Shown here piece after piece: positions 14,031 through 62,267 of a stretch of 64,000 nt of DNA; the first letter of the stretch is position 1; each line of letters opens with the position of its first letter. Under the pieces are notes generated by a model that was not told where the DNA came from, did not search any database, and worked only from the letters and a program-made list of their open reading frames with translations. The position numbers and the translations under genes were made by a program. The stretch comes from Thermoplasmatota archaeon (lineage in GTDB: Archaea; Thermoplasmatota; E2; JACPAO01; JAHFTW01), in NCBI GenBank assembly GCA_041601615.1, contig JBFIHX010000003.1, positions 282,007 to 346,006 of the forward strand. Reading direction: 5' to 3'.

Positions 14031-14351
14031 TGCGAGGAGCAGGATGGTTTGCGGAGGCCGAGCGCAGCGAGGTTTCCGTAAACCGAGGGCGCGTAGCGCC
14101 CGGAGACTGCGGCTCGCATTGAGCGCAGCGAAATGCGAGGAGCAGGATGGGAGTGGGGAGCCCGGAGGGCGACCCCGACCTCCTGCGTCTCGCATTCGAG
14201 CGAGCGCAGCGAGAGAGAATGCGAGGAGCAGGATTCGACGATAAGCGAATGCGAGCATTCGCTCATCGATCTCGCTCTCTTCGTTCGCGAGCAAATCCTG
14301 CTCGCGCAAAATGCCCGGTCGGGGACCGGGCATGAATGCGAGGAGCAGGAT
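14031..14351. repeat. Array of four direct copies of the tRNA-Leu 3' end (TGCGAGGAGCAGGAT) separated by unique structured spacers
   Basis: Copies start at 14031, 14134, 14220 and 14337 (the tRNA itself); periods 103, 86 and 117 bp. Confidence 0.9.
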
Positions 14352-14418
14352 TCGAACCTGCGAACCACTAAGGACCAGCCCCTCAAGCTGGCGTCGTTGG
14401 CCGCTTGACTATCCTCGC
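14337..14418 (-). tRNA. tRNA-Leu(GAG)
   Basis: GCGAGGA acceptor, CCAGC-TTGAGGG-GCTGG anticodon arm, variable arm, GGTTCGAATCC. Confidence 0.95.
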
Positions 14419-14465
14419 GATGTGTTGGCGGATGCTGTTGTTCGTCCCGCTTGGAGACGAACAAG

Positions 14466-14549
14466 CGCGACGAGGGAGATTTGAACTCCCGTGGGAAGAA
14501 TCCCAGAGGCTTAGCAGGCCCCCGCAATACCGAGCTATGCGATCGTCGC
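14466..14549 (-). tRNA. tRNA-Ser(GCT)
   Basis: GCGACGA/TCGTCGC acceptor, GGGGC-CTGCTAA-GCCTC anticodon arm, long variable arm, GTTCAAATC. Confidence 0.93.
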
Positions 14550-14681
14550 TTGCGGATGTCGGCTCGGAGCCCCGTGCCGAAGGCGGGCGACTTGGGTAGG
14601 GGTTATCACCATTTCGTCTGGCGCTGGCTGGAGCTTGGGCGTGGTGGAGGCGGTTTGGGCGTAGGTCTGGGGTCGTTTTGG

Positions 14682-15362
14682 GTGCCGATTGCTTATGTGG
14701 TTCGTCGGCTCGGGCGGGTCGTGCGGTTCGTGGATGGTCGGCTGCTGATGTGGTTGCTCGTGGCGGTGTTTGCTTCGGGTGTGCCCTTGGCGGTTTGGTT
14801 TGATGCGGATGCGACGCGGGCGGTGTCGTTGGTGGAGCGATGGCTGCGGGGGGCGCACGCGGTTTCCACGGCGTTGCTGGTGTTGGGGACTGTGTTGCAC
14901 TTGGTCATGCGGCTTCGGGGGCGCGTGGAGCCGCGGGTGGTCCGGTGGGGCGGTTTGTCGCTGGCGTTTGTGGGCCTTGCTGCGGCGACGGGCGCGCTCG
15001 TGGACCAGACGGGGCACGGGGCGCGAGCGTGGGCACGCCTTGGATTGGATGTGGGTGCGGTTTCGGCGGTTGCTGTGGTGCATGTGGCGTTTGCTTCGGT
15101 GCTGGTGGCGTTGGGCGTGTATGTTCATGTGGCGCGCAAGTCTCGGGTGCGGATTTTTGGCGGTTGGCAAAGTGCTGCGATTTCGTTGGTCCTGGTGGTC
15201 CTCGGCGTCGCGTTGTTGCCGGGCGTGGCTCCGGGTGCCGGTTCTGGGCACATTGCGACGGTTGCCGTGGCGCCGGGCGGCTTTGCGTGGCCGGTGTTGG
15301 TGGGCCTCGTGGTAGCTGTGGGTGCGCGCTGGTTGTCTTCTTGGCGTGGCGGCCTAGCGTAG
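14682..15362 (+). CDS. Divergent cytochrome b N-terminal-like membrane protein (start uncertain)
   Basis: LRGAH..(13)..LH and VVH..(14)..VH His pairs on TM helices. Confidence 0.55.
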   Translation: MPIAYVVRRLGRVVRFVDGRLLMWLLVAVFASGVPLAVWFDADATRAVSLVERWLRGAHAVSTALLVLGTVLHLVMRLRGRVEPRVVRWGGLSLAFVGLAAATGALVDQTGHGARAWARLGLDVGAVSAVAVVHVAFASVLVALGVYVHVARKSRVRIFGGWQSAAISLVLVVLGVALLPGVAPGAGSGHIATVAVAPGGFAWPVLVGLVVAVGARWLSSWRGGLA

Positions 15363-16313: not shown

Positions 16314-16367
16314 GGACACCGCCAGCGAGCAAGCCGGTTGAGGGTTTGCCGAAGGGGCGGTGCAGAC

Positions 16368-16400
16368 CTACTTCGTAAGCACCGTCTTCACGGCGTCCAG
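16368..16400 (-). repeat. Displaced, recoded copy of the transketolase C-subunit 3' end (LDAVKTVLTK*)
   Basis: 23/33 nt and 8/10 aa identical to 16460-16492 (LDAVRAVLTK*). Confidence 0.8.
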
Positions 16401-16459
16401 CCGCGTGCTGCACTTCGCTTCGCTCGTACCGCTGCGGGCTCGATGGCTCCGTTTGGCCC

Positions 16460-17431
16460 TTACTTCGTAAGGACCGCTCGGACCGCATCGAGCATTTTCG
16501 GTTGATCGACCTCGAAGTGCTGGTACAGTTCCTCGGGGGTGCCGCTGGTGGTGAAGCTGCGCACACCGATGCGGTGCAGCACACCGCCGGTGGCGTGCTC
16601 GGCCATCACTTCGGCAACTGCACTTCCGAGACCGTTGTGGATGAAGTGGTCCTCGGCGGTGACGATGCGACCGGTCTCGTGGGCACACTTGGAAACGAGC
16701 GCCTCGTCGATGGGCTTGATGCTGGCCATGTTGACGACACGGACACTGATGCCCTCGGCTTTGGCTTGCTTGGCCACTTGCAGGCTCTCGTTGACGTGCG
16801 GGCCACTGGCGATGAGGGTGACGTCCTCGCCGTCTTGGACAATCTGGCCCTTGCCCCATTTGAATTCGTAGTCGTCGTCGTGGAACATCGGCACGCCTGC
16901 GCGAGTGCTGCGCATGTAGCAGGGGCCCTTGCGTTCGTACATGGCGTGGACGGCGGAGCGCGCCTCGTTGGCGTCTGCCGGGGACACGACATACATGTTG
17001 GGCAAGGTGCGCATGATTCCGATGTCTTCGAGGCCGTGGGCGCTGCTGCCGTCTTGGCCGGTCATCAGACCACCGTGGCTGCCGCAGAACTTGACGTTGA
17101 GGCCCTGGCGCCCGACGCAGTTGCGGATCTGCTCCCAGCCGCGTTCGAGGAAGACTGCGAAGGTGCTGACGAAGGGCGTCTTGCCCATGTGCGCAAGGCC
17201 GCCGGCGGTGGTGACCATGTCCTGTTCGCTGATGCCCATTTGCACGAAGCGCTCGGGCCATTGGGCTTCGAACCAGTTGCTGCGCGTGCTTCCGGCAAGG
17301 TCCGCGTCGAGGGCGACCACTTCAGGGTGCAAGGCGCCGACTTCCAGGAGGCCGCGTCCGTAGCCGTCGCGGATGGCAACCTTGTCACCTAGTTTCCAGT
17401 TGAATGTCTTCGCGGTGGTGGCGGCTCCCAT
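16460..17431 (-). CDS. Transketolase C-terminal subunit
   Basis: LDADLAGST, GISEQDM, GQDGSSAH, TAEDH..GLG; ATG at 17431 overlaps the upstream stop. Confidence 0.93.
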   Translation of the reverse strand: MGAATTAKTFNWKLGDKVAIRDGYGRGLLEVGALHPEVVALDADLAGSTRSNWFEAQWPERFVQMGISEQDMVTTAGGLAHMGKTPFVSTFAVFLERGWEQIRNCVGRQGLNVKFCGSHGGLMTGQDGSSAHGLEDIGIMRTLPNMYVVSPADANEARSAVHAMYERKGPCYMRSTRAGVPMFHDDDYEFKWGKGQIVQDGEDVTLIASGPHVNESLQVAKQAKAEGISVRVVNMASIKPIDEALVSKCAHETGRIVTAEDHFIHNGLGSAVAEVMAEHATGGVLHRIGVRSFTTSGTPEELYQHFEVDQPKMLDAVRAVLTK

Positions 17432-18333
17432 CAGTCGTCCTCCAGGTTCTTGGGTCCCCATGTTTCGCCGAGTTGGCGCATCGCTTCGACCATTTCGTCG
17501 GTGGTGAGGGAGCGGCCGTGGAAGTCGGCCTGGCCTTCCATGAAGTCTACGCCGTGGCCCTTGTCCGTGTCGAAGACGATGCAAGTGGGTTTGCCCTTCG
17601 TGGCGGCGGCTTCCTTGAAGGCGGCGTCGCAGGCGGCAAGATCGTGGCCGTCGCATTCGATGACATGGAACCCAAAGGCGCGGAACTTGGCACCGACGGG
17701 ATCAACGTTCTTGACTTGGGCGCAGGGGCCATCGATTTGGACCTTGTTCCAGTCCACGAGGACGCAGACGGAATCGAGTTTGTAGTGCGCAGCAGTGAGG
17801 GCAGATTCCCAGATGTTGCCCTCTTGCAGTTCGCCGTCGCCAAGCGTCACGTAGACGCGGCCCTTGTTGCCGTCCATGCGCTTGGCAAGGGCAACACCGT
17901 TGCCATATCCGAGGCCCATGCCGAGGCTGCCTGTGCTCATTTCGATGCCGGGAATCTTGCGGTCTACGTGGCCTTGAAGAAGGCCCCCGAGGCGGCGCAA
18001 GCGACGGAACTCCTTCTTGTCGTAGTAGCCCATTTCGCCGAGCACCGCGTAGATGCCGGGGGCGCAGTGGCCCTTCGAAAGGATGAACACGTCTCGATCT
18101 GGGTCCTTGGCCGCGGCTTGCGCCGGGCTCATGTGCAAGTGGTTGTAGTACAGCACGGACAGGAAGTCGATCATCGAGAACGACCCGCCCGGGTGACCCG
18201 AGCCAGCGTCGAAGATCATGTTCAAGATCGCCACGCGCGACTTGCGCGTCCGCTCTGCCAGTTCTTCTAGAGAGAGCGGCCCCTGTACCGCCGTGGATGC
18301 AGCCACGGAGGCGGCGAGACGGCGTTGTGTCAA
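17431..18333 (-). CDS. Transketolase N-terminal (TPP-binding) subunit; true start probably ~18285
   Basis: SGHPGGS, ILSKGH, TGSLGMG, GDGELQEG. Confidence 0.93.
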   Translation of the reverse strand: MTQRRLAASVAASTAVQGPLSLEELAERTRKSRVAILNMIFDAGSGHPGGSFSMIDFLSVLYYNHLHMSPAQAAAKDPDRDVFILSKGHCAPGIYAVLGEMGYYDKKEFRRLRRLGGLLQGHVDRKIPGIEMSTGSLGMGLGYGNGVALAKRMDGNKGRVYVTLGDGELQEGNIWESALTAAHYKLDSVCVLVDWNKVQIDGPCAQVKNVDPVGAKFRAFGFHVIECDGHDLAACDAAFKEAAATKGKPTCIVFDTDKGHGVDFMEGQADFHGRSLTTDEMVEAMRQLGETWGPKNLEDD

Positions 18334-21333: not shown

Positions 21334-21355
21334 CCGAGACAAGGTTGTTGCGCCG

Positions 21356-31021: not shown

Positions 31022-31335
31022 GGTTTATTTCCTAACCTCATTTCGAGGCAATCGAGAATGATTACCAGATGAATTTAGTTTGTGTTTGGTTTGTTACCCC
31101 CTTAATAACGGGCCAATTCGGCCAAACAGACACTATTTTTACGGGGATTGGGAAATTTTGCCTTCTCGAAGCGAGCGAGAGGCGGGGGCTGGAAGCCCTC
31201 GAGCGAAGCATGCCGCTCCTCAGAAAGGGAGGACAAATTTTGATTGCGCGGAAAAAAAGTGGAGAGAAAGTGGGGAAGGGAGAAAGGGGGAATGACGGGG
31301 CCCCTGTGCCGGGTGTTGCGCCGGCGCAATGTTCC

Positions 31336-35113: not shown

Positions 35114-35481
35114 AGCGACGGGGGGTCGGTGGCGTGGCCGAGCGGAGCGGGAGCCGTCCGCCAGGATCGATATTCTGGAAGGCGGCAAGGCGTCACAACG
35201 GCGAGGCGGCTCGTTTTCGATGCTGCTTGGGGTTGACGATGTGACCAACACTACGTAGATATCAAAATACTACGTAACTCTACACGCCACAACCCTAAGT
35301 ACCGCGCCCAACGAGTATGGTTTGGGGTGCGCAGTACACCACTGCACACTTCGACACACAGAGGCGGCCCGGTGCCTTCCGACAGCACTCGGAACAACGC
35401 ATCAAACCACCGACCTACCATGGGCCCAGACACCACTGAGCTCCGGCCATCCTGGCCAAACACCGGGCCGCCACCACCCCT

Positions 35482-45700: not shown

Positions 45701-46861
45701 TTGTCGATGACTTTGGATGAAAATGATGGGGTCTTGGATTCATCGGATCGGCGATTCTTCTACCTGTATGATGCGCTTGGGAGTGTTCAGGGTTTGGTGG
45801 ATGAGTCGGGAAAATTGGTGGAGGGCTATTCGTATGATGCGTATGGTCGTCCAATGGTTCGGACTCCCGGAACAAGCGGAGGCGTGCTTTGGACCAGTGC
45901 AGATACCGTCACAGTAGGCGGAGCAGGTAGTCTCGACAATCCGTTCCTGTTTACGGGTCGGTACTGGGACTCCGAGATCAGCAAGTACCACTACCGCGCA
46001 AGGACGTACGACCCCGAACTGGGGCGGTTCATGTCCAGGGATCCTATTGGAAATTGGGGTGACTCCGGAAACCTAGGAAACGGATATGCGTACGTCGGCA
46101 ACAGTCCCTGGCAGTACACGGATCCGTATGGGTTGTGTCCGTCGTGCATTGGTGCGGTTGTTGGTGCTGCGGTTGGGGCGTTGTGGCAATTTGGCTCCTA
46201 TTCCTATCGGGTTGCCTCTACGGATGCAACATGGGATAATCAGGCGCTTTCGGATGATCTTAAATTTGGACTCATTGCGGGTGCCGTCATTGGAGCCACG
46301 GGTGGTCTCGGGGCGGGTGTTACTGGGACTGTCGCAGCCGGCGGTGCCAGTGCTGGCGCAGTGTTTGGGACGACCGTGGCTGTTGGGGCAGCGGAAGGGA
46401 TTGTAGGCCAAGCCACCTTTGATTATCTTAACGACGGCGCAATCAATGACGGTTTGCAGGCTTATGCGGGCGCAGCAGCATTCGGGGCTGTTACAGCGGG
46501 GGCAGGGTATGGGGTGGGAGCGCTTTGGAAAGCTAAAGGGGGCGCGCGCCTTGCCAATTTAAAAACTGTCGACTCTTTTGAAACGAGTGATAATCTCATA
46601 AAAGTTGGCGGTCGTTCATTTCAACTTACGGGGCATGCATCAGAACGCATGATTGAGCGCGGTATATCGCGGGATTCACTGGTAGAAGTTTTAAATAACC
46701 AACCATTCGTATATAAACATGGTGGAACCACAAAATACGGTTATTTTGACCCATCAACCAACATATTTGCAGCCACGGCAGATGGAAAAATCGCGACAGT
46801 TATACAGGGTGCACGAGTAAGGCCATATGTAGAAAATCTAGGGTGGACTCCATGGAAATGA
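39707..46861 (+). CDS. Secreted RHS/YD-repeat polymorphic toxin: signal peptide, 2x LamG, FN3, DUF6531-like, YD repeats, RHS core, Gly-rich linker, DUF4258-like toxin
   Basis: LVGYWPMEE/MDEIRIY (LamG), ISLAWSAP/YYYVVKA (FN3), many YD..G repeats, RTYDPELGRFMSRDP, YTDPYGL, TGHASERMIERGI. Confidence 0.93.
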   Translation: MIPILVYKRPPHLGSRALFMVALLVVSALFSFPAIQAAGTSSSLVGYWPMEETSGAVIADVSGLDNDGSLTITGSTGAISGASWVDGVEGNALSFDGDDSITVSDHNNFDLTDYSISLWIKMNDVGACNYHGLVTHGGAVDYINYQVYIDCDWVTLKSDDAAGNQKKYFSSFKPAAGKWEHIMWTFEANKEINFYANGQLWNTWAISHSPYQSNQAIFLGKGVYWAPPMRGAMDEIRIYHRALSEAEAMEEFVGVPSGHGVVAEWNFDEGSGSEVYDKHVWQKGRYGGGVNLDGSDEYIKVARSSSIAPDDTFTIMAWIRSDSNIIGHIISWGDNSNGLRRSLLAWNGGSGPDQKLYFSGHGSASNLDSGFTINDGAWHHLAITRDSSGVVRTYMDGVAGNSGTPALSAYTGNDILIGANPAYGENFKGSIDDARIYNKTLSNNDIEAIMWNQIGAPQTLTASAGPGSRTISLAWSAPADIGTGSAAAYEIHRSHQTGGPYAYVGTTASTTYLDSNLYSQPYYYVVKAINGQGTGSASNQANASPAGAPSSPNDGFDPSKYVPEALTGNTPFGGAALKSPCACQGAPNSVHLPMGEFVADFPLLHIENDRGSDFEFTLNHRTIANPDGNKSLAWGWDASWFRSLEADGSNYLYHSGNGHALTFTPLSGGQYAGPAGSYAKLVPVSGGFELHDRAGTIGVFSASESYRLTKTLDEAGNEWSLQYHSDGSLYRIVDPHNRIITLSYLSGDKVASNPFFDLHGRPLLESITDFSGRRAEIGYDHATGNIKTITTTGSAFGEPFETRFGYDDFGIIKIWDNEGQEYLRNHFDRHGRVVEQELLDGVGTTQYLRFDYDYNGRTTVTTDANGNEVEWDFDHSGTRRIVPSARTEFTRNLRESGFEDPVQYVTEYAYNAQDEVTKVTFPKGNSVSYGYDSTTDIFAKGNLRTVVQDPGPVRALRDDGSYQPQIEIEYVYDSAYNVVTKIIESRGKDATYEPQNGGNQSAARYTTRIFYDFEETSSLDYNGDGVTNSTDRRPVKIVYPTIHPTGSSIHTAFSSAYSGQARAEYFEWNSAGQLVAHVDAEGNRENRTYFAASGAHSNPFDREGYLASVVVDPEGLALASSFEYSPYGAIMGITDPKGNERLFELDARGRIIQETGPGSTAYRTKWAYNNNDELVQLERETDASTDTYSTREYAYDGLGRLVEEKVHATRSSFIVGALTGHPTPTSDTFSIHYAYDGNGQLIQRVNGAGDEETWTYDERGLLLSQSVGEGNGTYTYDGNGNLLAHQDPTGSVTWFQHDGFDRPAARVDSLGMLSMTHYDPAGNIVRERGYAPALFSGSPSGRPSSLDFDRFDQSATSLQYDRLYRYDEANQGYRADERHFFYQSGHTRASTVNTLSPSDEWDTSLREYDGIGQVVRTVNDNKHATTHEYDAAQRLKKSTDVLSNSIKFNYDKNSNVLSVTEVEQLASGSPAVAYVTGYSYDEENRLTKITNPDTTEKSFNYDGRDNLVKTIDELGNVVHTYFDYADRPWVVARELRVGGTGAGNITNLIETVTLWDGAHRPQHQCDGNGECTSYDYAGASGLLRKETHPDGIVVQHRYDADGSRIQTTFNNGKQLAMSYDELERLVRLDVDVDQAIIGTTQQTFAYDPMGRLVRTTDNGILNAGILSRSNAITTTQEYDSLGMLVGESQKGQNISHVRDGVGSIIKSIYPNGRAIFRTYDNLERLNHVWDSKGFIADHAYDGGHLVEKSFGSSTVPVLTSSYEFDDMRRITQLEHSKSGGSLFAGQKVRFNDAGAPTALEFLPNSVSGLDQLLGLDSGYRTTSWKSGNLNAGTTSISGGTSHSWGLDAANNWNSFNTGSSCSRKHGSGNQILTQTCGGTTASFNHDLNGNIILDDEFQYYYDFLNRLVRVDNKISGEPVMAFGYDALGRRVLKVVAEDLEALSPGGVEVGVDTFFTFSGQHVIQESQPFEPGYFPSLAAFAPVRVIRQWTHGSAVDEVLSMTLDENDGVLDSSDRRFFYLYDALGSVQGLVDESGKLVEGYSYDAYGRPMVRTPGTSGGVLWTSADTVTVGGAGSLDNPFLFTGRYWDSEISKYHYRARTYDPELGRFMSRDPIGNWGDSGNLGNGYAYVGNSPWQYTDPYGLCPSCIGAVVGAAVGALWQFGSYSYRVASTDATWDNQALSDDLKFGLIAGAVIGATGGLGAGVTGTVAAGGASAGAVFGTTVAVGAAEGIVGQATFDYLNDGAINDGLQAYAGAAAFGAVTAGAGYGVGALWKAKGGARLANLKTVDSFETSDNLIKVGGRSFQLTGHASERMIERGISRDSLVEVLNNQPFVYKHGGTTKYGYFDPSTNIFAATADGKIATVIQGARVRPYVENLGWTPWK

Positions 46862-47070
46862 CATACGACTCAGAAGCTGATGCAGCATCTATTCTATTTA
46901 CTCCTATTTTTCCCGGCATTTCAAGGAAATCGTTTCCCATTGACATCAATGGTCGGGCGTTTACCTTTGATTTCAATGACGCTGGGCAGCTTGTGTCGAT
47001 TGAAATATTAGATGCTAGCACAATTTTGCCAGGGTTAAAGAAGATGGGGGCGGACGCAGAGAACAAATAA
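46852..47070 (+). CDS. DUF2283-like immunity/antitoxin protein
   Basis: M.MTYDSEADAASI...DFNDAGQLVSIEILDAS; overlaps the toxin stop. Confidence 0.85.
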   Translation: MEMTYDSEADAASILFTPIFPGISRKSFPIDINGRAFTFDFNDAGQLVSIEILDASTILPGLKKMGADAENK

Positions 47071-47280
47071 ACCTTACATGGCCCCCACTGGAAAAAATTT
47101 AGTAGCATATTCCAATATGCGGTTAAACTTAAATAAATGAACATTAAGACACGCATTGACGGCATAAATATTGGTGTACTGTGGCAGTAGCTATAGGCGT
47201 TTATCTAGGTAAATTCAGTGAATCAAAAAAATACATTGGGTTGTGGCGATTCCGCTTCTACAAAGGGTCCGGGTTTCTAT

Positions 47281-48185
47281 GACAATCCATTCCTATTTAC
47301 GGGTCGGTTCTGGGATGCGCACATCGAGAAATACACTACCGTGCCCGCACCTACGACCTCGAAATGGGTCGCTTCCTGAGCCGTGATCCAATCGGTGTCT
47401 GGGGTGATTCAGGCAATCTTGGCAATCCGTATGCGTATGTCGGGAATCAGCCGTGGCAGTACACGGATCCGTATGGGTTGTGTCCCACGTGCCTTGCGGG
47501 TGCTGTCGCGGGACTGGTCGCAGGCGTGGCCATTTACGGCGTCGCCGTCGCTACAACGGACGCTGATTTTTCTTGGAAACATCTTGGGCTTGCTGCGGCC
47601 ATCGGCACCGCCGGAGGAGCACTGATAGGCACCGGTGTCGGCATCGGAGCCGGGGCCGGAATGTTTTCCAGCATTGGCGGTGCGGTCGTAGCGGGTGCGG
47701 GCGAAGGAATCCTTACCAGTGTAACTCTTGACACACTTGATGATGCAGCTGTCAATGAGGGTGTGGGAGCATATGCTGCTTCAGCGGCGACGGGGGCCAT
47801 TACAAACGGGGCATTTGCTTCTTTGGGCAAGGGTGTATCGGCGTGGAAAGGCACGCGAGGAAACTCAATCGATGAAATTTGGCCCCCTAACCGAGGCTTT
47901 GCGCACGAGCCTGTGGATCATATCCTTTTACCCGGGGTACGCGTTAATCGGTATGGTTCAGAGGCAGGTACATTTGTCTCCCCGCAAGGCGTGTCATTCT
48001 CTATGCGTGCTCTCCCCGATGCCAGCTTGGCCCGACCGTTTACAACATACGTGGTAGAGGAATCAATCCGAGTTCGGAGTGGGTTATCAGCACCATGGTT
48101 TGGCCAAGAAGGGTTAGGTATCCAATATGAGTTATCTCGACCAGTGAAAGATTTGATCCAAGATGGATTTTTGAGGAGAATATAG
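47281..48185 (+). pseudogene. Orphan RHS-core cassette with TNT-like (NAD+ glycohydrolase) toxin domain
   Basis: Core homology starts at 47281 with a 1-nt deletion near 47335; WPPNRGF, NRYGS..GTF.SP, RALP, PWFGQ.G.G.QY. Confidence 0.85.
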
Positions 48186-48186
48186 C

Positions 48187-48456
48187 ATGAATAGAAAAAA
48201 ATTAGCAAAAATTCTCCTATCTGAGGGATTTCCTCCGTATTCTTTTGAATTTGGGAATTTATGGCCTCTTGACGATGCATTCACCATCAGGGAGGGTCTG
48301 CATGGGTGGCATGTCAAGTATGCCGAAAGGGGGCAGATAAGGAATTGCGGCACTTTCGATTCCGAAAACGATGCTTGTAATTTTTTATACATGGAAATGG
48401 TGGATGCATGGCCAGAAGAACTTAGGAAAAATGTTAAAAATAACAAAAAAACATAG
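48187..48456 (+). CDS. Immunity protein for the TNT-like cassette (Imm59-like)
   Basis: Immediately downstream; W.V.YAERG....FDSE.DAC motif. Confidence 0.75.
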   Translation: MNRKKLAKILLSEGFPPYSFEFGNLWPLDDAFTIREGLHGWHVKYAERGQIRNCGTFDSENDACNFLYMEMVDAWPEELRKNVKNNKKT

Positions 48457-48620
48457 CCCTAAAAATAGCATAGGGCCCCCCATTATTGCCACTATTTCTA
48501 GCATTAGTAAATTTATTATTTTTCAATAATAAAATAAGCCGACGTAAAGAATGATAAATTACTTAGCGCATTTATCTACCACAAAATCGAAATCATAAAA
48601 CTTGTTTTTATTGCAATCCC

Positions 48621-49557
48621 CTGGGACTCCGAGATCAGCAAGTACCACTACCGTGCCCGGACGTATGATCCGGAGCTAGGTCGGTTCATGTCCCGAGATC
48701 CTATTGGAAACTGGGGAGACTCCGGAAACCTAGGAAACGGATATGCGTACGTCGGCAACAGTCCCTGGCAGTACACGGATCCGTACGGGTTGTGTCCCTC
48801 ATGTTTCGGCGCAGTAGTAGGTGCCGCAGCTGGTGCGTTGTGGCAGTTTGGATCCTATTCCTATCGGGTTGCCTCTACGGATGCAACATGGGATAATCAG
48901 GCGCTTTCTGACGATCTTAAATTTGGGCTTCTTGCGGGTGCTGTCATTGGATCCACTGGTGGTCTTGGGGCCAGTATTACTGGCGCCGTAACCGCCGGCG
49001 GTGCTGGAGCGGGGACGGTGTTTGGCGCAACGCTGGCGGTAGGGGCCGCCGAGGGAGTCGTGGGCCAAGCCGCATTTGATTTCCTGGATGATGGTTCCTT
49101 CAATGATGGCTTGCAGGCTTACGCAGGGGCCGCGGCGTTTGGTGCTGCTACCGCCGGGGCAGGATATGGGGCAGGGGCACTTTGGAAGGCAGGGCGAGGG
49201 GCGCATGGGGGTGTGACCAATGGGGCCAGCGAGACCATTGATAACTTTGGCAGAGGGGCAATATCCAGTCCATACACCCGCTCCGGAACACTGACCAATG
49301 ATGCCGTTGCGAATTCATTTGAGATTGAACTAAAGGGGGGCATACGCAATTCTCGGGTCGTTCAACAACTGACTTCAGATGGAAGTTCCATCGACGATTG
49401 GGGCAAATTCGCGACCCGCCAATGGCATGATTCGCCGAGTGGGTCATTCCAGCCGCACTTCTACCGGAACAAAGTGTCCGGACAAGTGAACTACGAAATC
49501 GACTATAAATCCGTGCTGCATCCGAAAAGCATGTTCCCGCTCGGAGGCGGAAGATGA
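48621..49557 (+). pseudogene. Orphan RHS-core cassette with unassigned toxin domain
   Basis: 48621-49190 closely matches the main RHS core and linker, then a different tip (LTSDGS.I.DWGKF.T...HFY.N..SG.V.Y..DYK). Confidence 0.85.
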
Positions 49558-49886
49558 AAGTCAAGGCGGGGCCTCTTGCGAAGGAGGGCTGGTTCGCGGA
49601 AGCCGAGTACGTGGTGTTGGGCATAACCATGCACCCGAAATGGGGATGCCGTTTCATCGTTGAGGAGAGTCCCGATAATCCGGGCCTCCATCCATACGGA
49701 GAAGTCGTGCTTACCGATGGACGTGTGCCAACTTTGTGGCACGCCGCCATTGACGAGGATGGGTCTTTCTCCCTACAGCCGGAGGAATGGACTGCCGAGT
49801 TCTGGCAGGCATACGAAAATGGTGACCCGGCTGCATGGGAAGTCTATCGAAAGGTCAAACAGCGCCTTGAAAAGGAGTCCGCATAG
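49554..49886 (+). CDS. Putative immunity protein for orphan cassette 2
   Basis: ATGA overlap with the toxin; small acidic protein with EYVVLGI and FWQAYENGDP. Confidence 0.75.
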   Translation: MKVKAGPLAKEGWFAEAEYVVLGITMHPKWGCRFIVEESPDNPGLHPYGEVVLTDGRVPTLWHAAIDEDGSFSLQPEEWTAEFWQAYENGDPAAWEVYRKVKQRLEKESA

Positions 49887-50322
49887 AATGAGGTAATCCC
49901 AGTGCCCCAAACCGCATAGTGGAGAACCCGTTTGGCAACGCTTCGAGCCCAGTCGTCGAGATCGCCGTCGTTCACGACGGCAGGGGGTGCACCAGCGGCG
50001 TGAATCACCTGGAAGGCATTACGAACCCCATGCATATCTGCGATGTGAACAACGATTCTTGCCACCGCGTCTCATCCCCTGTTCGAGCGACGAACTCGAT
50101 CAAATCCTTGCCTTCGAAAGCATCTCGTTGAGCGTGAAGGTAGGATTGCAGGGACATTGACGCGCCGCCGAATTCCATTGGCAAGGTACAGAATTACATT
50201 TATAGGGTCTCGATGGCGCCAACAACGGGGACTCTTTGACTCGCACCGGAACGACATTCACGCAAGCGCACGGGGCTGGTAGCCTCGTCAACGCATACGT
50301 TGGAAACCAATCGAGGCAAAAA

Positions 50323-50493
50323 ATCAGCAAATACCACTACCGTGCCCGCACGTATGATCCGGAGCTAGGTCGGGTCATGTCCCGAGATCCTATTGGAAAC
50401 TGGGGAGACTCCGGAAACCTAGGCAACGGGTATGCGTACGTCTGCAACAGTCCTTGTCAGTACACGAGTCTTCTTGGGGGTCGGGTGAGGTGA
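50323..50493 (+). pseudogene. RHS-core remnant without a toxin tip
   Basis: ISKYHYRARTYDPELGRVMSRDP...YAYVCNSPCQYT; homology stops just before DPYG. Confidence 0.8.
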
Positions 50494-58153: not shown

Positions 58154-59562
58154 GCGGCACCCGCAAAGGCCCCGTACTCCTGCCCCCCTGGGACCTCGAA
58201 ACCGCTGCGCTGCGCAAAATCCTCGTCGGCGCCGGCCTCGCCACCATCCTCTTCCTCCTGCCGCCACCCCCTGGCCTCGAACGAGAAGGAAAAGACGCCC
58301 TCGCCCTATTCGTCGTCGTCCTCTACTTCTGGGCCACCGAAGCACTTCCCCTCCCCGTCACCGCCCTCGGAGCCGGCGTCGGACTCGTCTTGCTCGGAAT
58401 CGTAGAGCACCCCAACGACGCATGGGCCCCCTACGCACAGGACACCATTTTCTTCCTCCTCGGTAGCCTGATTCTCGCCGACGGAGTCATGAAAACCCAC
58501 GCAGACCGAGTCCTAGCCGCCCGATTCCTGCGCCGCGTCGGAGGCACCACCGACAGCCTCCTGTTCGGAACCGTCGCCGTCAGCGCCCTCTCGGCCATGT
58601 TCATCTCCAACCACGCAGTCGCAGCCGTGATGCTCCCGCTCATGCTGAGCATCCTACGCGGCACCCGACTCATCGAGCAAAAAAACATCGCCACCGCCCT
58701 CATGCTCGCCGTTGCATTCGGAGCCGGCATCGCAGGACTCGGCACCCCCAGCGGCGGCAGCCGCAACATCATCGTCCTCGGCTACCTCGACGAGCTACAC
58801 GGCATCAAAATCAGCTACCTCGACTGGACCCTGCGCGCCGCACCCATCACCCTCGCACTGATTCCCGTCGTCTACATCCTCCTCAAGCTCACCTTCCGAG
58901 TTCCCCGCGCCCGCATCGAAAGCAACGCCATCCCCCTCGAATCAGACCGACTTGACAACCAACAAACCCGCGTCCTCGTCATCATGGGCCTCACCGTCGC
59001 CCTATGGATCTGGAAAGGCACAAGCTGGGGCCTCGGAACCATCGCAGTCATGGGCGCCGTGCTGCTCTTCGTCACCGGCATCCTCGACTGGACCGATACC
59101 CGAAAACGAATCGCCTGGGGCGTCCCGCTCATCTACGGCGCCGCACTCGCACTCGGACAAGCCCTCCAAGACACCCACGCCGCAGACTGGCTCGCCACGG
59201 GACTCCTCGGACTCCCCATCTGGACCGGCCCAGGCGTTCTCCTCGCAGGATCCCTAATCTTGGCCACCATCCTCACCAACGTCATGAGCGACGGCGGAGC
59301 CGCAGCAGTGCTCGCGCCCGTCACCCTCAGCCTTGCAGCATTGAGCGGTGCCGACATCGCCAGCATAGGCATGATCACCGCCATCGGCGCCGCGTACGGA
59401 TTCCTCCTCGTCGTCGCCAATCCCGCCAACGTCATCACCTACCAAAGCGGCCTCTGGAGCCCCCGCGACCTCGTGCGCGCCGGCATCCCGCTCACACTCG
59501 TATGTCTCCTCGTCACGTACCTGGCAGCCACGCTTTACTGGCCGCTGCTCGGGCCCATCTAG
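58150..59562 (+). CDS. DASS/SLC13 sodium-coupled anion symporter
   Basis: WATEALP, MFISN, GLGTPSGG.RN, TNVMSD, NPAN. Confidence 0.9.
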   Translation: MSGTRKGPVLLPPWDLETAALRKILVGAGLATILFLLPPPPGLEREGKDALALFVVVLYFWATEALPLPVTALGAGVGLVLLGIVEHPNDAWAPYAQDTIFFLLGSLILADGVMKTHADRVLAARFLRRVGGTTDSLLFGTVAVSALSAMFISNHAVAAVMLPLMLSILRGTRLIEQKNIATALMLAVAFGAGIAGLGTPSGGSRNIIVLGYLDELHGIKISYLDWTLRAAPITLALIPVVYILLKLTFRVPRARIESNAIPLESDRLDNQQTRVLVIMGLTVALWIWKGTSWGLGTIAVMGAVLLFVTGILDWTDTRKRIAWGVPLIYGAALALGQALQDTHAADWLATGLLGLPIWTGPGVLLAGSLILATILTNVMSDGGAAAVLAPVTLSLAALSGADIASIGMITAIGAAYGFLLVVANPANVITYQSGLWSPRDLVRAGIPLTLVCLLVTYLAATLYWPLLGPI

Positions 59563-59631
59563 GTATGGCGCAAAACGTTCCGATCCACGGCCTTGTACGT
59601 CTTGACGCGGCCTAAGTCACGGACTGAGGCC
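59559..59631 (-). repeat. Displaced copy of the wHTH regulator 3' end (ASVRDLGRVKTYKAVDRNVLRHT*)
   Basis: 66/73 nt identical to 60750-60822. Confidence 0.92.
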
Positions 59632-59839
59632 GGGGCGTCATTCTTGTATTTCGACATTTCTCCAGCTTCACTAACGGCGTACCGAGTGCTTACTCCAAGC
59701 GTTCGCTCCTAGCATAGGTGGGCGAAACCATGCAAAAAATAAGCTAAGCGGCCCACATTAGTAAAGTATAATTCGCCACTAAAACATGAACAATTATAAT
59801 AAATATTACAACGCCATATATAATCTGTAAAAGCCACTG

Positions 59840-60655
59840 TTACCTTTCATGTTCACAAATGCTATCTTCAAAATTCAATATAGTGCCCTTAAATACTACT
59901 TCTAATGTTATTTGCGTTAGTGCTGGCCGTGTTATGGACATATCACTCATTATAAGTGGGGGTTGAAAATCCACCATTGTTAAATCCCCCAATGTCAACA
60001 CTGGGGACTTTTTGAGCACAACAACATTGGCCCCTCCGTCAGGGGAGTGCCAAAAATAGGCGAAATACTGTGTCGCTGAGCTTCCGCTAATAGGGCCAGG
60101 CCTAATCACCTCGATGATGGAAGGTTGATAGCCAGATGGGTTGATTGTTAATGTATATCCATCCAATGGTGATTGGGTTGTGGTAATATTGGCTTCGATG
60201 GTTTTGATGCCCTCTGATTTCATTTGCGAGGCCAGTAAACTATTATTATGAAAAATAGTATTGATATATCTCATAGTCACTGCATCTGGAAGAACATCTC
60301 GACAAGTTGCAGGGGGATAATAAGCGCTATGGGCTTCTAATGCAAATGTAATATTATTTATTTTCAAATCCTGCCACAATAACTCTTGACAAGTCAGTTC
60401 GATAGTATCTGCTGAATAGGTCAAACCCAGAGTTGCATTGCGCCAGCCATCAGGGGGCGAGTGAGGTCCGAATTGCCCACTTGGGCCAATCCATTCGTCC
60501 GCTACGGCTATGCCATGGCAGCCATTAAAGGATGCATAGTTGCTAGTAGGCAACATATCCTCATTTTGAATGACTATGGGGGTATATTCTGCATTGGAGA
60601 AAGTACAACCTGACATAGCAGCAGCTGCACATATCAACATTATCATTTTTAACAT
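59840..60655 (-). CDS. AT-rich lipoprotein, paralog of 62268-63068
   Basis: MSGC lipobox; shared C.GI, P.GW, LE....Y.PP..C...LP, FW.S and terminal Cys. Confidence 0.8.
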   Translation of the reverse strand: MLKMIMLICAAAAMSGCTFSNAEYTPIVIQNEDMLPTSNYASFNGCHGIAVADEWIGPSGQFGPHSPPDGWRNATLGLTYSADTIELTCQELLWQDLKINNITFALEAHSAYYPPATCRDVLPDAVTMRYINTIFHNNSLLASQMKSEGIKTIEANITTTQSPLDGYTLTINPSGYQPSIIEVIRPGPISGSSATQYFAYFWHSPDGGANVVVLKKSPVLTLGDLTMVDFQPPLIMSDMSITRPALTQITLEVVFKGTILNFEDSICEHER

Positions 60656-60749
60656 ATATCACCTGCATTTAAGCTACTAGAGTATCGCCTAAAAGTAAAA
60701 TTGTTTATTACGTGGGGGCCCCTTTGCTATTTATTTGTACTGGTTATAT

Positions 60750-62267
60750 CTATGTATGGCGCATAACGTTCCGATCTATGGCCTTGTACGTCTTGACGCG
60801 GCCTAAGTCGCGGACCGAAGCCAAGTTGTTGTCTACCAGTTTCTTGAGGCGGTGCTGTGCCGTGCTACGGCTCCAACCCCAACCCTCCGCTTCATCCAAG
60901 ACCGTGCGCTGAATCACGTCCGGGTGGTGCAACAACCACTGATACAGACGATCCACATCCGGATCCCGAAGCACAACCACCGCATCCCAATCGCCAAGAT
61001 GTTCCTGGTCACAATGGAAATACCGCATCGTCTGGCCATACTGCCGTTCAATCAGAACATCACATCGGCCAAGCACCGCGATATGATGCCGCGCCGTACC
61101 CGCTGCCATGTTCGTCTCTCGGATCAGCTCCCGGAACGTGGGCCCCGGGTTGGCGTCCACGTACTCGTAAATGGCACGACGGTTCGGGTGTTCGAGTGCA
61201 GCGTCCATGTCCAAGCGGGTGAACTGGCTCGCAATGTACGAAAGAAGCGCCTTGCCCTTCCAGACTAAGATTGCGATGAGGGTAAGCGAGGCCACGGATG
61301 CTGTGGCGGTTGTTGAGATGGGAACAGGAACGCCATCGAGAGAGGCGGATTGGAAGTTGGTGGAGATGACGGCGGTTCCCGTGTTGTTGGGGTATGTGTG
61401 TACATTTGATAATGTGATGTCGCCCACGCCACGGAGGGTTTCCCCGTTTACGGAGATGCCAAATTGGTCTAAGTTTTCGCTAGTTTGGAGGGATGGGAGG
61501 CGGATGGAGCCTGATGCGGAAACTGAGAGCCCTTGGCCTCCTTGAACGAAGGTGGTATTTGATGCATTGAGGGTGAGGAATCCATTTTGAGTATTCAAAC
61601 GCCAGGAATGTGTTTCAAAATAATATGGAATTTCCAAAGTATCGGTGTTTCTAGCGCAAAGTTTATTGTCGCACCACGAATCTAGGCCTTGAAATTCTAA
61701 TACAGTCACATTTAGAGCCATAATAGTTACACTATTGTCTGTATTGCCAACGCTCTTAATCATTGCGCCTCCTCCGCTTAATGTTGATTGTGGCCTGAAA
61801 GCATAATGTGGCAAATTTGCTTTAAAAATGTTAGAGTATGGGAGAATTAAATCTGAACTATGCTCCAAATTAAATAAACTCCCCTGCGATTTAAAATATA
61901 TGGACTCTGCTATTATTAATATTGAGCTCCAAGCGCCCCTACTTTTGCTTTCAAAGTAATTGCCATCTAAAACTGTAGATTCTGTGTCTCCCCACTCGCT
62001 GTGTACCTGGTATGAATTTTGTTGGATGCCGGGGCGGCGGTACTCATGGTATGGAAATTTTTCTGAACTTAATACATTATGTGTTTCTAATAATGATGTT
62101 GCGTGGCCAGTTGGAGGAATGATGACCAAGGCCCAGCCGTTCGAAAAACTCTCAAGTTCACCGGCCAATTGAATAGGAACCTCATAGTTTACTAATAATT
62201 CACCCTGCGCCGAAGGGGCTGTGGCAGAAAGTAAAAAAATTACAGAATATATTTGGAGCTTTATCAT
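60750..62267 (-). CDS. Membrane-anchored one-component regulator: extracellular domain, TM, double winged-HTH
   Basis: Signal peptide; TM near aa 320-340; LEHPNRRAIYEYV..NPG.TFREL...GTARHH..VL; second wHTH SRSTAQHRLKKL. Confidence 0.85.
   Translation of the reverse strand: MIKLQIYSVIFLLSATAPSAQGELLVNYEVPIQLAGELESFSNGWALVIIPPTGHATSLLETHNVLSSEKFPYHEYRRPGIQQNSYQVHSEWGDTESTVLDGNYFESKSRGAWSSILIIAESIYFKSQGSLFNLEHSSDLILPYSNIFKANLPHYAFRPQSTLSGGGAMIKSVGNTDNSVTIMALNVTVLEFQGLDSWCDNKLCARNTDTLEIPYYFETHSWRLNTQNGFLTLNASNTTFVQGGQGLSVSASGSIRLPSLQTSENLDQFGISVNGETLRGVGDITLSNVHTYPNNTGTAVISTNFQSASLDGVPVPISTTATASVASLTLIAILVWKGKALLSYIASQFTRLDMDAALEHPNRRAIYEYVDANPGPTFRELIRETNMAAGTARHHIAVLGRCDVLIERQYGQTMRYFHCDQEHLGDWDAVVVLRDPDVDRLYQWLLHHPDVIQRTVLDEAEGWGWSRSTAQHRLKKLVDNNLASVRDLGRVKTYKAIDRNVMRHT

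What the first reader, a model, noticed from the sequence alone, without database searches (positions are those of the whole stretch)
14031..60822. Hypothesis: a genome-wide system that inserts DNA by replacing gene 3' ends
Three unrelated targets in 64 kb (tRNA-Leu three times, transketolase, wHTH regulator) show new 3' end, then insert, then displaced old 3' end. Two further intergenic multi-hairpin elements have similar motifs (31153-31242, 35105-35201). The targets share no sequence, so one conventional site-specific integrase is a poor explanation; a structure-guided or homology-guided mechanism using folded single strands would fit. The unification is inference, no responsible enzyme is visible here, and the wHTH case lacks the clear fold-back.
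Basis: inference. Interest (0 to 1): 0.8.

Follow-up and report, generated by a model that had tools for sequence, protein, structure and literature searches.

The report
Hairpin inserts that duplicate gene ends
In this marine archaeon and its relatives, dozens of genes and some tRNA genes carry a short folded DNA insert right at their stop codon, followed by a second copy of the gene's last stretch; no described mobile element or enzyme found here explains this recurring pattern.

Summary
The pattern is real and genome-wide. tRNA-Leu(gag), the transketolase C-subunit gene and a wHTH gene each show intact 3' end (A1), insert (M), displaced copy (A2).

- **Census:** 30 of 1,928 predicted gene ends have a copy of their last 27 nt within 400 nt downstream, against 5 of 1,928 control 27-mers. 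So do 3 of 6 tRNA-Leu genes.
- **Boundary:** the repeat usually ends within 2 nt of the stop codon.
- **Inserts:** 60-190 nt of GC-rich hairpins with GNA triloops, often the cap GAGCGNAGCGA, sometimes with a fold-back copy of the gene's own last codons. One family ("beta", 66 nt, covariation-supported) occurs only in this archaeal family: 18 of 24 other genomes, 0 of 16 outside it. It is flanked by such repeats in 16 of 20 copies here and 17 of 25 in relatives.
- **Relatives:** empty sites, different inserts at the same gene, unit gain or loss, and swapped end versions.
- **Divergence:** A1/A2 differences look coding-like (93 of 145 at third positions).
- **Assembly:** independent contigs from other samples bridge the transketolase structure.
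- **Enzymes:** no RT, Y1-HUH, TnpB or Cas1. An integron integrase exists, but its attC-like sites lack such repeats (0 of 55).

Best reading: duplicative insertion by host template switching, then recombination between the repeats. The mechanism is inferred.

The parts
14337..14418 (-). tRNA-Leu(gag), the target gene; its 3' end is copy A1
   Evidence: ARAGORN and Rfam tRNA, 52.5 bits
14220..14238 (-). Displaced copy 2 of the tRNA-Leu 3' end (19 nt)
   Evidence: Sequence read; census (downstream copies at +102, +188, +291)
14134..14148 (-). Displaced copy 3 of the tRNA-Leu 3' end (15 nt). It is followed, in tRNA direction, by a fold-back hairpin capped by GAGCGCAGCGA at 14121-14131
14031..14045 (-). 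Displaced copy 4 of the tRNA-Leu 3' end (15 nt), the most distal, next to the original downstream DNA
14046..14219 (+). Hairpin modules between the tRNA-Leu end copies, with caps at 14060, 14121 and 14202. The G.U pairs fit the + strand
   Evidence: Fold z-score -6.8 for 14015-14345. A homologous array lies behind tRNA-Leu(cag) elsewhere in the genome. Genome G002 lacks exactly one 86-nt unit
16460..17656 (-). Transketolase C-terminal subunit gene. Its last 30 nt (16460-16489) are end version 'R' (DAVRAVLTK*)
   Evidence: Pfam Transket_pyr and Transketolase_C; sequence
16398..16459 (-). Insert behind the transketolase stop. 16437-16459 is an imperfect inverted copy of the gene's last 26 nt (hairpin loop C-GAA-G at the last codon). 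A module capped by GAGCGAAGCGA (16415-16425) follows
   Evidence: RNA fold, z -3.4. A 29-nt core is identical in G002 although the gene is 84% identical
16368..16397 (-). Displaced transketolase end, version 'K' (DAVKTVLTK*), out of frame. It is the version in use in relative G002
35125..35190 (+). Weak beta-like hairpin module just after the carboxyltransferase stop (35113); no displaced copy was seen
   Evidence: Model R1, 20.2 bits, E 8e-4; fold
60748..60822 (-). Last 75 nt of the wHTH gene (60750-62267), copy A1
   Evidence: Repeat family D7, 91% identity; Pfam HTH domains
59632..60747 (-). 1,116-nt low-GC insert with a lipoprotein-like ORF at 59840-60655 (GC3 0.38; no Pfam or PHROGs hit)
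   Evidence: It is absent in G001, where the symporter gene and the wHTH end lie about 76 nt apart
59557..59631 (-). Displaced copy A2 of the wHTH 3' end. The repeat ends 2 nt past the stop codon

Best explanation
These are lineage-specific hairpin modules that sit between the stop codon and the T-rich terminator of many genes, and behind some tRNA genes. Each module was added by a duplicative event. The gene keeps an intact end (A1), the module (M) follows at the stop codon, and a second copy of the last 15-190 nt of the gene (A2) lies behind it, still joined to the original downstream DNA.

The most likely cause is template switching by the host's own replication or repair machinery:
1. A DNA 3' end that stops at the end of the gene folds back on a very stable C-GNA-G mini-hairpin and copies its own strand. 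This makes the fold-back arm.
2. Alternatively, or in addition, it copies a capped hairpin from another locus.
3. It then re-pairs upstream in the gene and copies the gene's end a second time.

Afterwards, ordinary homologous recombination between A1 and A2 does four things. It expands units into tandem arrays, deletes them (giving empty sites), swaps end versions, and keeps the copies alike.

Shown: the architecture, its frequency, its spread in the family, the structure of the modules, and gain, loss and shuffling between relatives. Inferred: the template-switch steps and the absence of a dedicated enzyme.
For: **Architecture and frequency**
- 30 of 1,928 gene ends against 5 of 1,928 controls.
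- 3 of 6 tRNA-Leu genes, and no other tRNA type among 48 tRNAs apart from tandem tRNA genes.
- Beta modules are flanked by direct repeats in 16 of 20 copies here. The figure is 0 of 55 for attC-like sites and 8 of 300 for random places. In other genomes of the family it is 17 of 25 beta loci, including tRNA-Met and tRNA-Gln 3' parts.

**Fold-back made from the local target**
- An exact inverted match of at least 8 nt between the last 30 nt of the gene and the first 60 nt after it occurs in 6 of 24 cases, against 3 of 240 control 30-mers.
- The same 20-nt cap (TGA-GGGCGNAGCCC-GAACGG) is followed by two different locus-specific fold-backs at two unrelated genes.
- The transketolase end plus tail forms a 55-nt hairpin centred on the last codon.

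**Inserts are heterogeneous**
- Of 23 inserts, 15 have no match elsewhere in the genome outside their own locus. This argues against one element with fixed ends.

**No candidate enzyme**
- RVT_1, Y1_Tnp, TnpB and Cas1 were not found in a 93%-complete genome, while the control genomes gave hits.

**Recombination between the copies**
- Tandem arrays of 87-147 nt units occur at gene ends, and several break contigs.
- G002 lacks exactly one unit of the tRNA-Leu array.
- The R and K transketolase ends are in swapped order in G000 and G002, and G001 has three ends.
- At the C2:181980 gene, A1 and A2 are about 94-99% alike within G000 and within G002, but about 77% alike between the two genomes, with the same left boundary.
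- There is a mosaic exchange of the 5' halves of A1 and A2 among G018 and G014.

**Not an assembly artefact**
- Logan contigs of three further samples bridge or overlap the transketolase structure with 0 differences.
Against: - The repeat's right boundary clusters at the stop codon: 8 of 14 dispersed gene-end repeats end within 6 nt of it. Several module families begin exactly at the stop. Random fork stalling does not obviously predict this, so either selection or a stop-codon-aware step is needed.
- Little of the insert sequence is templated from the local flanks. Coverage by inverted 8-mers is 252 nt against 173 nt in shuffles, out of 2,215 nt.
- The beta module has a sharp 3' end that abuts A2 (-6 to +7 nt in most loci) and is conserved under structural constraint. 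It therefore behaves like a discrete element.
- A1/A2 differences are coding-like: codon positions 1/2/3 = 30/22/93, and 82 synonymous against 39 non-synonymous codons. The stop is kept as a stop in 30 of 31 pairs. A decaying local duplicate should not look like this. An extra assumption is needed, namely that A2 was recently in use or is refreshed by recombination with empty-site alleles.
- No template switch has been observed directly.
Confidence: 0.4

Rival explanations
1. The modules (beta, epsilon, capped hairpins) are non-autonomous mobile elements moved in trans by an enzyme not yet recognised. One cut falls at the stop codon and the other at a variable distance upstream on the other strand, so filling in gives a long, variable target duplication. 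This would resemble SINE-type target-primed insertion or a single-strand hairpin transposon.
For: - Discrete families have conserved ends and structure. The beta model has 18 pairs; 91.5% of cells are paired against 34-45% when slid, 5 pairs show changes on both sides, and a U.G pair is conserved in 15 of 17 copies.
- The beta 3' end abuts A2.
- Modules start at the stop codon at unrelated genes.
- Different inserts occupy the same gene end in G000, G002 and G007, while G001, G003 and G013 have empty sites.
- When the two stops differ, the displaced copy has TAG in 9 of 12 pairs and the upstream copy never does. This is as if the module supplies a new stop.
- Beta is restricted to one family: 18 of 24 genomes against 0 of 16 outside.
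Against: - No RT, Y1-HUH, TnpB or Cas1 was found.
- The modules have no terminal inverted repeats.
- The duplications range from 15 to 192 nt, which no known transposase produces.
- 15 of 23 inserts have no relative elsewhere in the genome.
- Fold-back arms are made from the local target, which a pre-formed element cannot carry.
- Only a few enzyme families were tested, and MAGs are incomplete.
Confidence: 0.25
2. A piece of DNA from another strain, carrying its own version of the gene's 3' end plus the insert, is integrated by homology. That could be a single crossover of a small circle, or homology on one side only. The resident 3' end is thereby pushed downstream.
For: - A1/A2 differences look like differences between functional alleles: 93 of 145 are at third codon positions, and stop codons change to other stop codons.
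- G000's displaced K end of transketolase is the end in use in G002, and the reverse holds for R.
- G000's displaced end at the RDLDRVTP* gene is slightly closer to G002's working end (24/27) than to G000's own working end (20/27).
- The wHTH insert is foreign-looking DNA with GC3 of 0.38.
Against: - Many pairs are identical or nearly so (34/34, 39/39, 71/72).
- At the C2:181980 gene both genomes have the same boundary, and the copies are alike within but not between genomes.
- Circles of 100-250 bp are poor recombination substrates.
- The model explains spread between alleles of one gene, not how a new gene acquires a module.
- Fold-back arms are local.
- No empty-site variant or junction appeared in the four runs laid.
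Confidence: 0.15
3. Each case is the scar of a classical integrase-mediated integration into a gene's 3' end (tRNA or protein gene), with most of the element since deleted. Alternatively, the genome's integron integrase recombines these hairpins.
For: - 'New end, insert, old end' is what tRNA- and gene-targeting integrases produce (recalled knowledge).
- The genome has an integron integrase (TIGR02249, 414.7 bits against a cut-off of 265).
- It also has two further tyrosine-recombinase hits.
- The genome's attC-like sites carry the same cap motif.
- The wHTH insert is gene-sized.
Against: - Inserts of 60-190 nt at about 30 unrelated targets would need about 30 independent near-total deletions.
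- No integrase lies in or beside the window's inserts.
- 0 of 55 attC-like sites have flanking repeats, against 16 of 20 beta modules.
- Beta lacks the inverted core sites (...TAAC / GTTAG...) seen in the attC-like family.
- IntI over its cut-off was found in 8 of 24 other family genomes, yet G001, G002 and G023 have the architecture without a detected IntI. These MAGs are incomplete, however.
Confidence: 0.08
4. It is an assembly artefact: strain variants or hairpins made the assembler string two alleles in tandem.
For: The genome is a 30-contig metagenome-type assembly. Several contigs end inside such arrays, and the A1/A2 differences resemble strain differences.
Against: - Logan contigs, made by a different assembler, from samples X2 and X4 bridge the transketolase R-cap-K structure with 0 differences, and two overlapping X3 contigs cover it. 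An X1 contig spans the whole tRNA-Leu array, though X1 may be the source sample.
- The same architecture recurs in at least 12 other genomes at orthologous and other loci.
Confidence: 0.02

Closest known systems
REP/BIME elements of bacteria (mobilised by RAYT, a Y1-HUH transposase)
   Same: They are small GC-rich imperfect palindromes. They are multi-copy, lie just behind stop codons in 3' untranslated regions, and are often clustered. Their structure is conserved more than their sequence.
   Different: No Y1_Tnp gene was found. The elements here are flanked by long direct copies of the upstream gene's end, anchored at the stop codon. Some stems are built from the target itself. The lineage is archaeal.
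MITEs and SINE-like non-autonomous elements with target-site duplications
   Same: They are short non-coding inserts flanked by a direct duplication of the target. They form families of related copies and appear as presence/absence differences between relatives.
   Different: The modules have no terminal inverted repeats. The duplications are 15-192 nt and variable, not 2-15 nt and fixed. One edge is pinned to the stop codon. No parent transposase or RT was found.
Integrative elements that supply a replacement 3' end to their target gene (tRNA-targeting integrases; phages in icd of E. coli; recalled, not from a call)
   Same: The order is new 3' end, insert, displaced old 3' end. Differences between the two ends are synonymous, and tRNA genes are among the targets.
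   Different: The inserts are 60-190 nt with no genes and no integrase. Dozens of unrelated targets occur in one genome. Units form tandem arrays.
Integron attC sites (archaeal integrons: PMC9668308; abstract and matching passages read)
   Same: They are imperfect palindromes directly behind ORFs that act as folded single strands. This genome has an integron integrase and 59 attC-like sites, 11 of them with the same GAGCGNAGCGA cap at the apex.
   Different: The attC-like sites have inverted core sites and lie 0.7-1.9 kb apart in cassette arrays, with no flanking repeats (0 of 55). The beta and capped modules lack the cores and do have the repeats.
Templated insertions from snap-back and template-switch repair (polymerase-theta end joining, MMBIR/FoSTeS in eukaryotes; quasi-palindrome template switching in bacteria; recalled, with PMC10766183 and PMC3874155 seen only in a search listing)
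   Same: They combine an inverted copy of the flank, a direct duplication and short filler. They are nucleated by small hairpins. GCGNAGC is the 'extraordinarily stable' DNA mini-hairpin (PMC13037366, abstract in the listing).
   Different: Here the events recur at gene ends, share a conserved cap and whole module families, persist across genera and are under structural constraint. Repair scars elsewhere are one-off and unconstrained.
Rhs orphan C-terminal tip arrays
   Same: The window's own RHS gene (39611-46861) is followed by displaced C-terminal tips, another 'new end displaces old end' arrangement.
   Different: The units are kilobase-sized and carry toxin and immunity-type ORFs. There are no capped hairpins. 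The kind is known and is not part of the hairpin-module pattern.

Membership tests
Integrase-type integrative element (att duplication of a gene 3' end) | A tyrosine or serine integrase gene inside or next to the insert | tested here: not met
   No recombinase domain was found in the ORFs of 9-36 kb and 33-64 kb of the window. The genome's three Phage_integrase hits lie on contigs C16, C13 and C8, not near these loci.
Integrase-type integrative element (att duplication of a gene 3' end) | A kilobase-sized element with genes between the repeats | tested here: not met
   The inserts are 50-185 nt in 22 of 23 class-2 cases. Only the wHTH insert (1,116 nt, one ORF) is gene-sized.
MITE / IS-derived element | Terminal inverted repeats and a short target duplication of fixed length | tested here: not met
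   The aligned beta copies show no terminal inverted repeats. The flanking repeats range from 15 to 192 nt.
REP/RAYT or IS200/IS605-type hairpin element | A Y1-HUH transposase (Y1_Tnp) or TnpB gene in the genome | tested here: not met
   PF01797 and PF07282 gave 0 matches in G000 (93% complete), while 6 and 8 of the 14 control genomes gave hits.
Retroelement (SINE-like, group II intron, DGR) | A reverse transcriptase gene in the genome | tested here: not met
   PF00078 gave 0 matches in G000, while 3 control genomes gave hits.
Diversity-generating retroelement (variable and template repeats at a gene's 3' end) | Differences between the two repeats confined to adenines of the downstream (template) copy | tested here: not met
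   Of 160 differences in 30 pairs, the downstream copy has A at 37, C at 42, G at 56 and T at 25.
Casposon | A Cas1-type integrase, terminal inverted repeats and a 14-15 nt target duplication (tRNA-Leu among known targets; recalled) | tested here: not met
   PF01867 gave 0 matches. The 15-nt tRNA-Leu repeat fits, but the inserts are 71-102 nt with no inverted termini.
Integron (IntI + attC cassette array) | An integron-type integrase gene | tested here: met
   The ORF at G000:C16:15954-17264 scores 414.7 bits with TIGR02249 (cut-off 265). This applies to the genome, not to the window's inserts.
Integron (IntI + attC cassette array) | The hairpins in question are attC sites: inverted core sites R''/R' around an imperfect palindrome, spaced by cassette ORFs | tested here: not met
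   The attC-like family (...TAAC ... GTTAG...) forms arrays on C16, C21, C25 and others. None of its 59 hits lies on contig C3, which holds the window. The beta and capped modules lack these cores and differ in having flanking repeats: 16 of 20 against 0 of 55. No curated attC model was available.
Described RNA family (Rfam) | A match to a curated covariance model | tested here: not met
   Only tRNAs matched in window 13-36 kb at E<=1 (apart from one chance plastid hit on the antisense strand of tRNA-Ser), and in four module-bearing loci at E<=0.1 (again apart from one antisense chance hit on a tRNA).
Structured RNA or single-strand DNA element (beta module) | Base pairs kept through compensating changes | tested here: met
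   The test used 17 copies and 18 pairs. 91.5% of cells are paired against 34-45% when slid. 5 pairs have changes on both sides, and 0 of 500 shuffles reach the covariation score. The structure was drawn by me from these same sequences, so the slid control is generous to it.

The most novel reading that the evidence does not exclude
This could be a new class of mobile 3'-end modules whose insertion is anchored on the stop codon itself. One route is through the RNA: the message is cut at the stop codon by the translation machinery, joined to a hairpin module, and copied back into DNA. Another is an unrecognised enzyme that reads folded single strands. Either way, each insertion hands the gene a new stop and terminator hairpin and leaves the old end behind as a fossil. 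The same capped hairpin forms the apex of this genome's integron attC sites. The modules could therefore also show how ordinary genes acquire an attC-like hairpin at their 3' end, which would be the unsolved first step of integron cassette formation.
Probability: 0.15. Interest if true: 0.9.

Novelty: new variant of a known kind. Interest (0 to 1): 0.62.

Why it matters
About 1.5% of the genes of this archaeon, and some tRNA genes, have had their 3' ends rebuilt in the same stereotyped way, and so have genes across its whole family.

- If the cause is a mutational bias of the host's replication or repair at very stable mini-hairpins, it is a new, strong and lineage-specific source of 3'-end and terminator evolution. 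It would also be a natural record of template switching in archaea.
- If the cause is an unrecognised mobile system, it would be the first element known to target stop codons with long target duplications.
- Either way the displaced ends are dated fossils of earlier gene ends, and they break metagenome assemblies.
- The shared cap with the genome's attC-like sites offers a concrete place to look at how genes gain attC-type hairpins.

Tried and rejected
- **Rfam:** no family matches the modules.
- **DGR reading:** rejected. There is no RT, and the differences are not tied to adenines.
- **Casposon reading of the 15-nt tRNA-Leu repeat:** rejected. There is no Cas1 and no inverted termini.
- **C/D-box sRNA reading:** considered after PMC6009581 (matching passages read) and dropped. 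No C or D boxes were seen in the modules; this was checked by eye only.
- **Integron reading of the modules:** rejected. The integron itself is real.
- **uvrB/RHS island as a further case:** rejected. The uvrB end is not duplicated anywhere in the window.
- **Beta pattern scan of one genome per species:** 46 stretches matched. I looked at 10. Five, all from one Thermoplasmatota MAG, had a second hairpin or flanking repeats. One from another archaeal MAG had the first hairpin only. The 4 bacterial ones looked like chance matches inside coding DNA. The other 36 were judged from their titles only.
- **Second pattern search:** one search repeated a control that one search already contained.
- **Local templating of whole inserts:** only weakly above shuffles.
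- **Expression:** no RNA holder was listed.
- **Empty-site variants:** no joint at the transketolase or tRNA-Leu inserts appeared in the four runs laid. In X2-X4 the stretch 14142-14255 had no cover.
- **HVO_0163-type wHTH insert ORF:** no Pfam or PHROGs family.
- **Literature:** searches found no description of gene-end duplications around hairpin modules in archaea or bacteria. The Haloquadratum paper PMC3119063 (matching passages read) concerns other elements. Supplementary files were not consulted.

Full report
**What the window is.** The window is G000:C3:282007-346006 of a 2.79-Mb, 30-contig, 62% GC genome rated 93% complete. It is archaeal: it carries ribosomal protein S3Ae. Its relatives are metagenome-type genomes. 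One close relative's public record is titled 'Thermoplasmatota archaeon', and the DNA is held by marine-metagenome runs. Gene ends in my censuses come from a crude ORF filter of my own (at least 100 codons, third-position GC), not from a gene finder.

**The three cases.**
- *tRNA-Leu(gag), 14337-14418 (-).* It is followed, in its own direction, by three more copies of its last 15-19 nt, at 14220-14238, 14134-14148 and 14031-14045. Hairpin-rich spacers of 71-102 nt separate them, and three carry the cap GAGCGCAGCGA.
- *Transketolase C-subunit gene, 16460-17656 (-).* It ends DAVRAVLTK* (version 'R'). Next comes a 23-nt imperfect inverted copy of that end, then a module capped by GAGCGAAGCGA. Finally there is an out-of-frame second end, DAVKTVLTK* (version 'K', 16368-16397).
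- *wHTH gene, 60750-62267 (-).* Its last 75 nt are repeated at 91% identity behind a 1,116-nt low-GC insert with one lipoprotein-like ORF.
- *The two extra elements.* 35125-35190 is a weak member of the beta family described below. 31153-31242 is not better folded than shuffles.

**Genome-wide census.** For 1,928 predicted gene ends I searched the 10-400 nt downstream for the best copy of the last 27 nt.
- 30 ends score at least 20/27, against 5 for control 27-mers taken 100 nt upstream in the same genes. At least three of the 30 are doubtful: a tRNA-like tandem read as an ORF, a probable internal protein repeat, and one 20/27 match.
- Of 48 tRNA genes, only tRNA-Leu(gag), (cag) and (caa) have downstream copies of their 3' end with caps. 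The Asp and Gly hits are tandem tRNA genes.
- In an unbiased list of 154 local direct repeats (at least 20 nt, 40-500 nt apart), 64 lie inside genes, 19 span a gene end and 71 are other. Of the 14 dispersed gene-end repeats, 8 end within 6 nt of the stop codon.

There are two classes:
1. Tandem arrays of a unit [gene end + module] of 87-147 nt. Several of these end contigs.
2. A1-M-A2 followed by the original downstream DNA. The repeats are 27-192 nt long and their right edge lies at the stop codon.

**The inserts.**
- *Cap.* GAGCGNAGCGA occurs 53 times, against 16 for the pattern read backwards. My hand estimate from base composition is about 10. The flanking stems differ from copy to copy but stay complementary. 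The cap contains GCGNAGC, described as an extraordinarily stable DNA mini-hairpin (PMC13037366, abstract in a search listing).
- *Fusion to the stop.* The cap is often fused to the stop codon (T-GAGCG...).
- *Families.* Several module families exist. 'Beta' has a first hairpin with a conserved U.G pair and an inner GNA-capped stem, and a second hairpin with a T-rich loop. Other families include 'epsilon' and a 20-nt cap, TGA-GGGCGNAGCCC-GAACGG. Of 23 class-2 inserts, 15 have no relative elsewhere in the genome.
- *Fold-backs.* In a subset the arm after the cap is the reverse complement of the gene's own last codons. An exact match of at least 8 nt occurs in 6 of 24 cases, against 3 of 240 controls. 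That arm must have been made at the locus.
- *Beta structure.* It is supported by covariation.
- *Rfam.* No family matches these modules.

**Relatives.**
- *Spread of the cap.* It is enriched in most genomes of the same family (for example 46 against 10, 41 against 6, 69 against 21), but not in most genomes of the neighbouring families.
- *Spread of beta.* A covariance model of beta finds it in 18 of 24 other genomes of the family and in 0 of 16 outside it.
- *Flanking repeats.* I examined 25 of the 28 non-G000 loci returned, dropping one weak hit and two at contig starts. Beta is flanked by direct repeats in 17. The downstream copy starts -6 to +7 nt from the end of beta in most. Two of these repeats are the 3' 50-61 nt of tRNA-Met and tRNA-Gln. 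In G000 the figure is 16 of 20, against 8 of 300 random places.
- *Orthologous sites are dynamic:*
  - The gene at C3:92487 is filled in G000 and empty in G002.
  - The gene at C2:181980 is filled in G000 and G002 with the same left boundary, and empty in G001.
  - The GGKISLGF* gene has a capped fold-back in G000 and G007 and a beta module in G002. It is empty in G001, G003 and G013. The original T-rich downstream DNA always follows the last copy.
  - The RDLDRVTP* gene has different inserts in G000, G001, G012 and probably G005, and none in four others.
  - G002 lacks exactly one 86-nt unit of the tRNA-Leu array.
  - The R and K transketolase ends stand in opposite order in G000 and G002, and G001 has three ends.
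  - G001 has the wHTH gene next to the symporter gene without the 1.1-kb insert.

**How the two copies differ.**
- In 31 pairs (470 codons), 82 differing codons are synonymous and 39 are not. The differences fall 30/22/93 on codon positions 1/2/3.
- The displaced copy keeps a stop in 30 of 31 pairs.
- Where the two stops differ (12 pairs), the displaced copy has TAG in 9 and the working copy never does. Genome-wide stop use is TGA 681, TAG 606, TAA 326.
- The differences are not tied to adenines.
[quoted passage not shown] Among three genomes of another genus, the 5' halves of the two copies have been exchanged.

Together this shows ongoing recombination between the copies. It also shows that the displaced copy does not decay like junk. 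Two explanations would fit. The displaced copy may have been in use recently. Or it may be overwritten by recombination with working ends from empty-site alleles in the population. The second explanation is inference.

**Not an artefact.** Logan contigs, made by another assembler from three other samples of the same study, cover the transketolase R-cap-K structure with no differences: X2 and X4 bridge it, and two overlapping X3 contigs span it. A contig of X1, possibly the source sample, spans the whole tRNA-Leu array.

**Enzymes.**
- RVT_1, Y1_Tnp, the TnpB domain and Cas1 gave no match in G000, while the control genomes gave hits.
- There are three tyrosine-recombinase hits. The strongest is an integron integrase, with an array of 11 attC-like sites just 5' of it. 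In all there are 59 such sites.
- IntI over its cut-off occurs in 9 of 41 genomes searched, all in this family.
- The attC-like sites share the cap but have no flanking repeats (0 of 55; 4 sites near contig ends were dropped). The integron is therefore a separate feature.

**Mechanism.** The facts to explain are these:
- one edge at the stop codon;
- a variable upstream edge;
- a cap or module that is not local;
- in a subset, a fold-back arm that is local;
- a sharp 3' end of beta against A2;
- the oldest copy lying distal, with the original stop and downstream DNA;
- array growth, loss and shuffling.

I think the most likely cause (0.4) is template switching by host replication or repair at very stable mini-hairpins, followed by homologous recombination between the repeats. 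A dedicated trans-acting enzyme (0.25) would better explain the stop-codon anchoring and the discrete families, but no candidate was found. Integrase scars or integron action (0.08) and assembly artefact (0.02) are unlikely. All of these mechanisms are inferred; none was observed.

**Limits.**
- Gene ends were called crudely.
- The relatives are incomplete MAGs and are not independent of one another.
- Only a handful of enzyme families were tested.
- No RNA data were available.
- Supplementary files of papers were not seen.
- The comparisons with icd-integrating phages, casposon targets, polymerase-theta repair and RelE-type cleavage are recalled, not from calls.

Noticed in passing
G000:C16:110-17264 (outside the window); also C21, C25, C26, C1, C11, C13, C5: This archaeal genome holds a complete integron. 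The integrase scores 414.7 bits with TIGR02249 (cut-off 265). An array of 11 attC-like sites lies just 5' of it, and there are 59 attC-like sites in all. IntI over its cut-off occurs in 9 of 41 related genomes searched, all in one family. The published survey of archaeal integrons found only six IntIs in 75 MAGs (PMC9668308).
   Followed up: partly
window 39611-50493: In a 44-56% GC island, an RHS-repeat protein (2,416 aa) is followed by displaced C-terminal tips (repeat family at 45977, 47322, 48634, 50323). One tip has a TNT-toxin domain (47364-48185). This is an ordinary Rhs orphan-tip array. The neighbouring uvrB 3' end is not duplicated.
   Followed up: partly
G000:C5:116251-116518 (locus L022:252-519): A 122-nt unit repeated 2.2 times lies just upstream of tRNA-Leu(caa). 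The unit begins and ends like a tRNA-Leu (acceptor and T arm), but neither ARAGORN nor Rfam calls it.
   Followed up: partly
G000 contig ends: C9:1-209, C10:4-230, C14:63346-63603, C12:72204-72362, C9:94044-94181, C18:31222-31454, C4:235659-235753: Several contigs stop inside tandem arrays of hairpin modules. These arrays are therefore longer than assembled, and they are a cause of assembly breaks in this lineage.
   Followed up: no
locus L035 (G002:C85:5100-5850) against window 13849-14418: In G002 the tRNA-Arg/S3Ae neighbourhood faces tRNA-Leu(cag). In G000 it faces tRNA-Leu(gag). This is a rearrangement between tRNA-Leu loci that both carry module arrays.
   Followed up: no
window 60831-60882: A stretch of about 50 nt inside the wHTH gene recurs on many contigs of G012, G017 and G005 and on G000:C26. 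The wHTH gene thus belongs to a multi-copy family. G000's copy has much lower GC than the orthologue in G001.
   Followed up: no
window 32385-32582 and 9081-10403: Two large secreted-type proteins carry bacterial TSP3 repeats (66-nt coding repeats). They account for some of the intragenic local repeats in the census.
   Followed up: no
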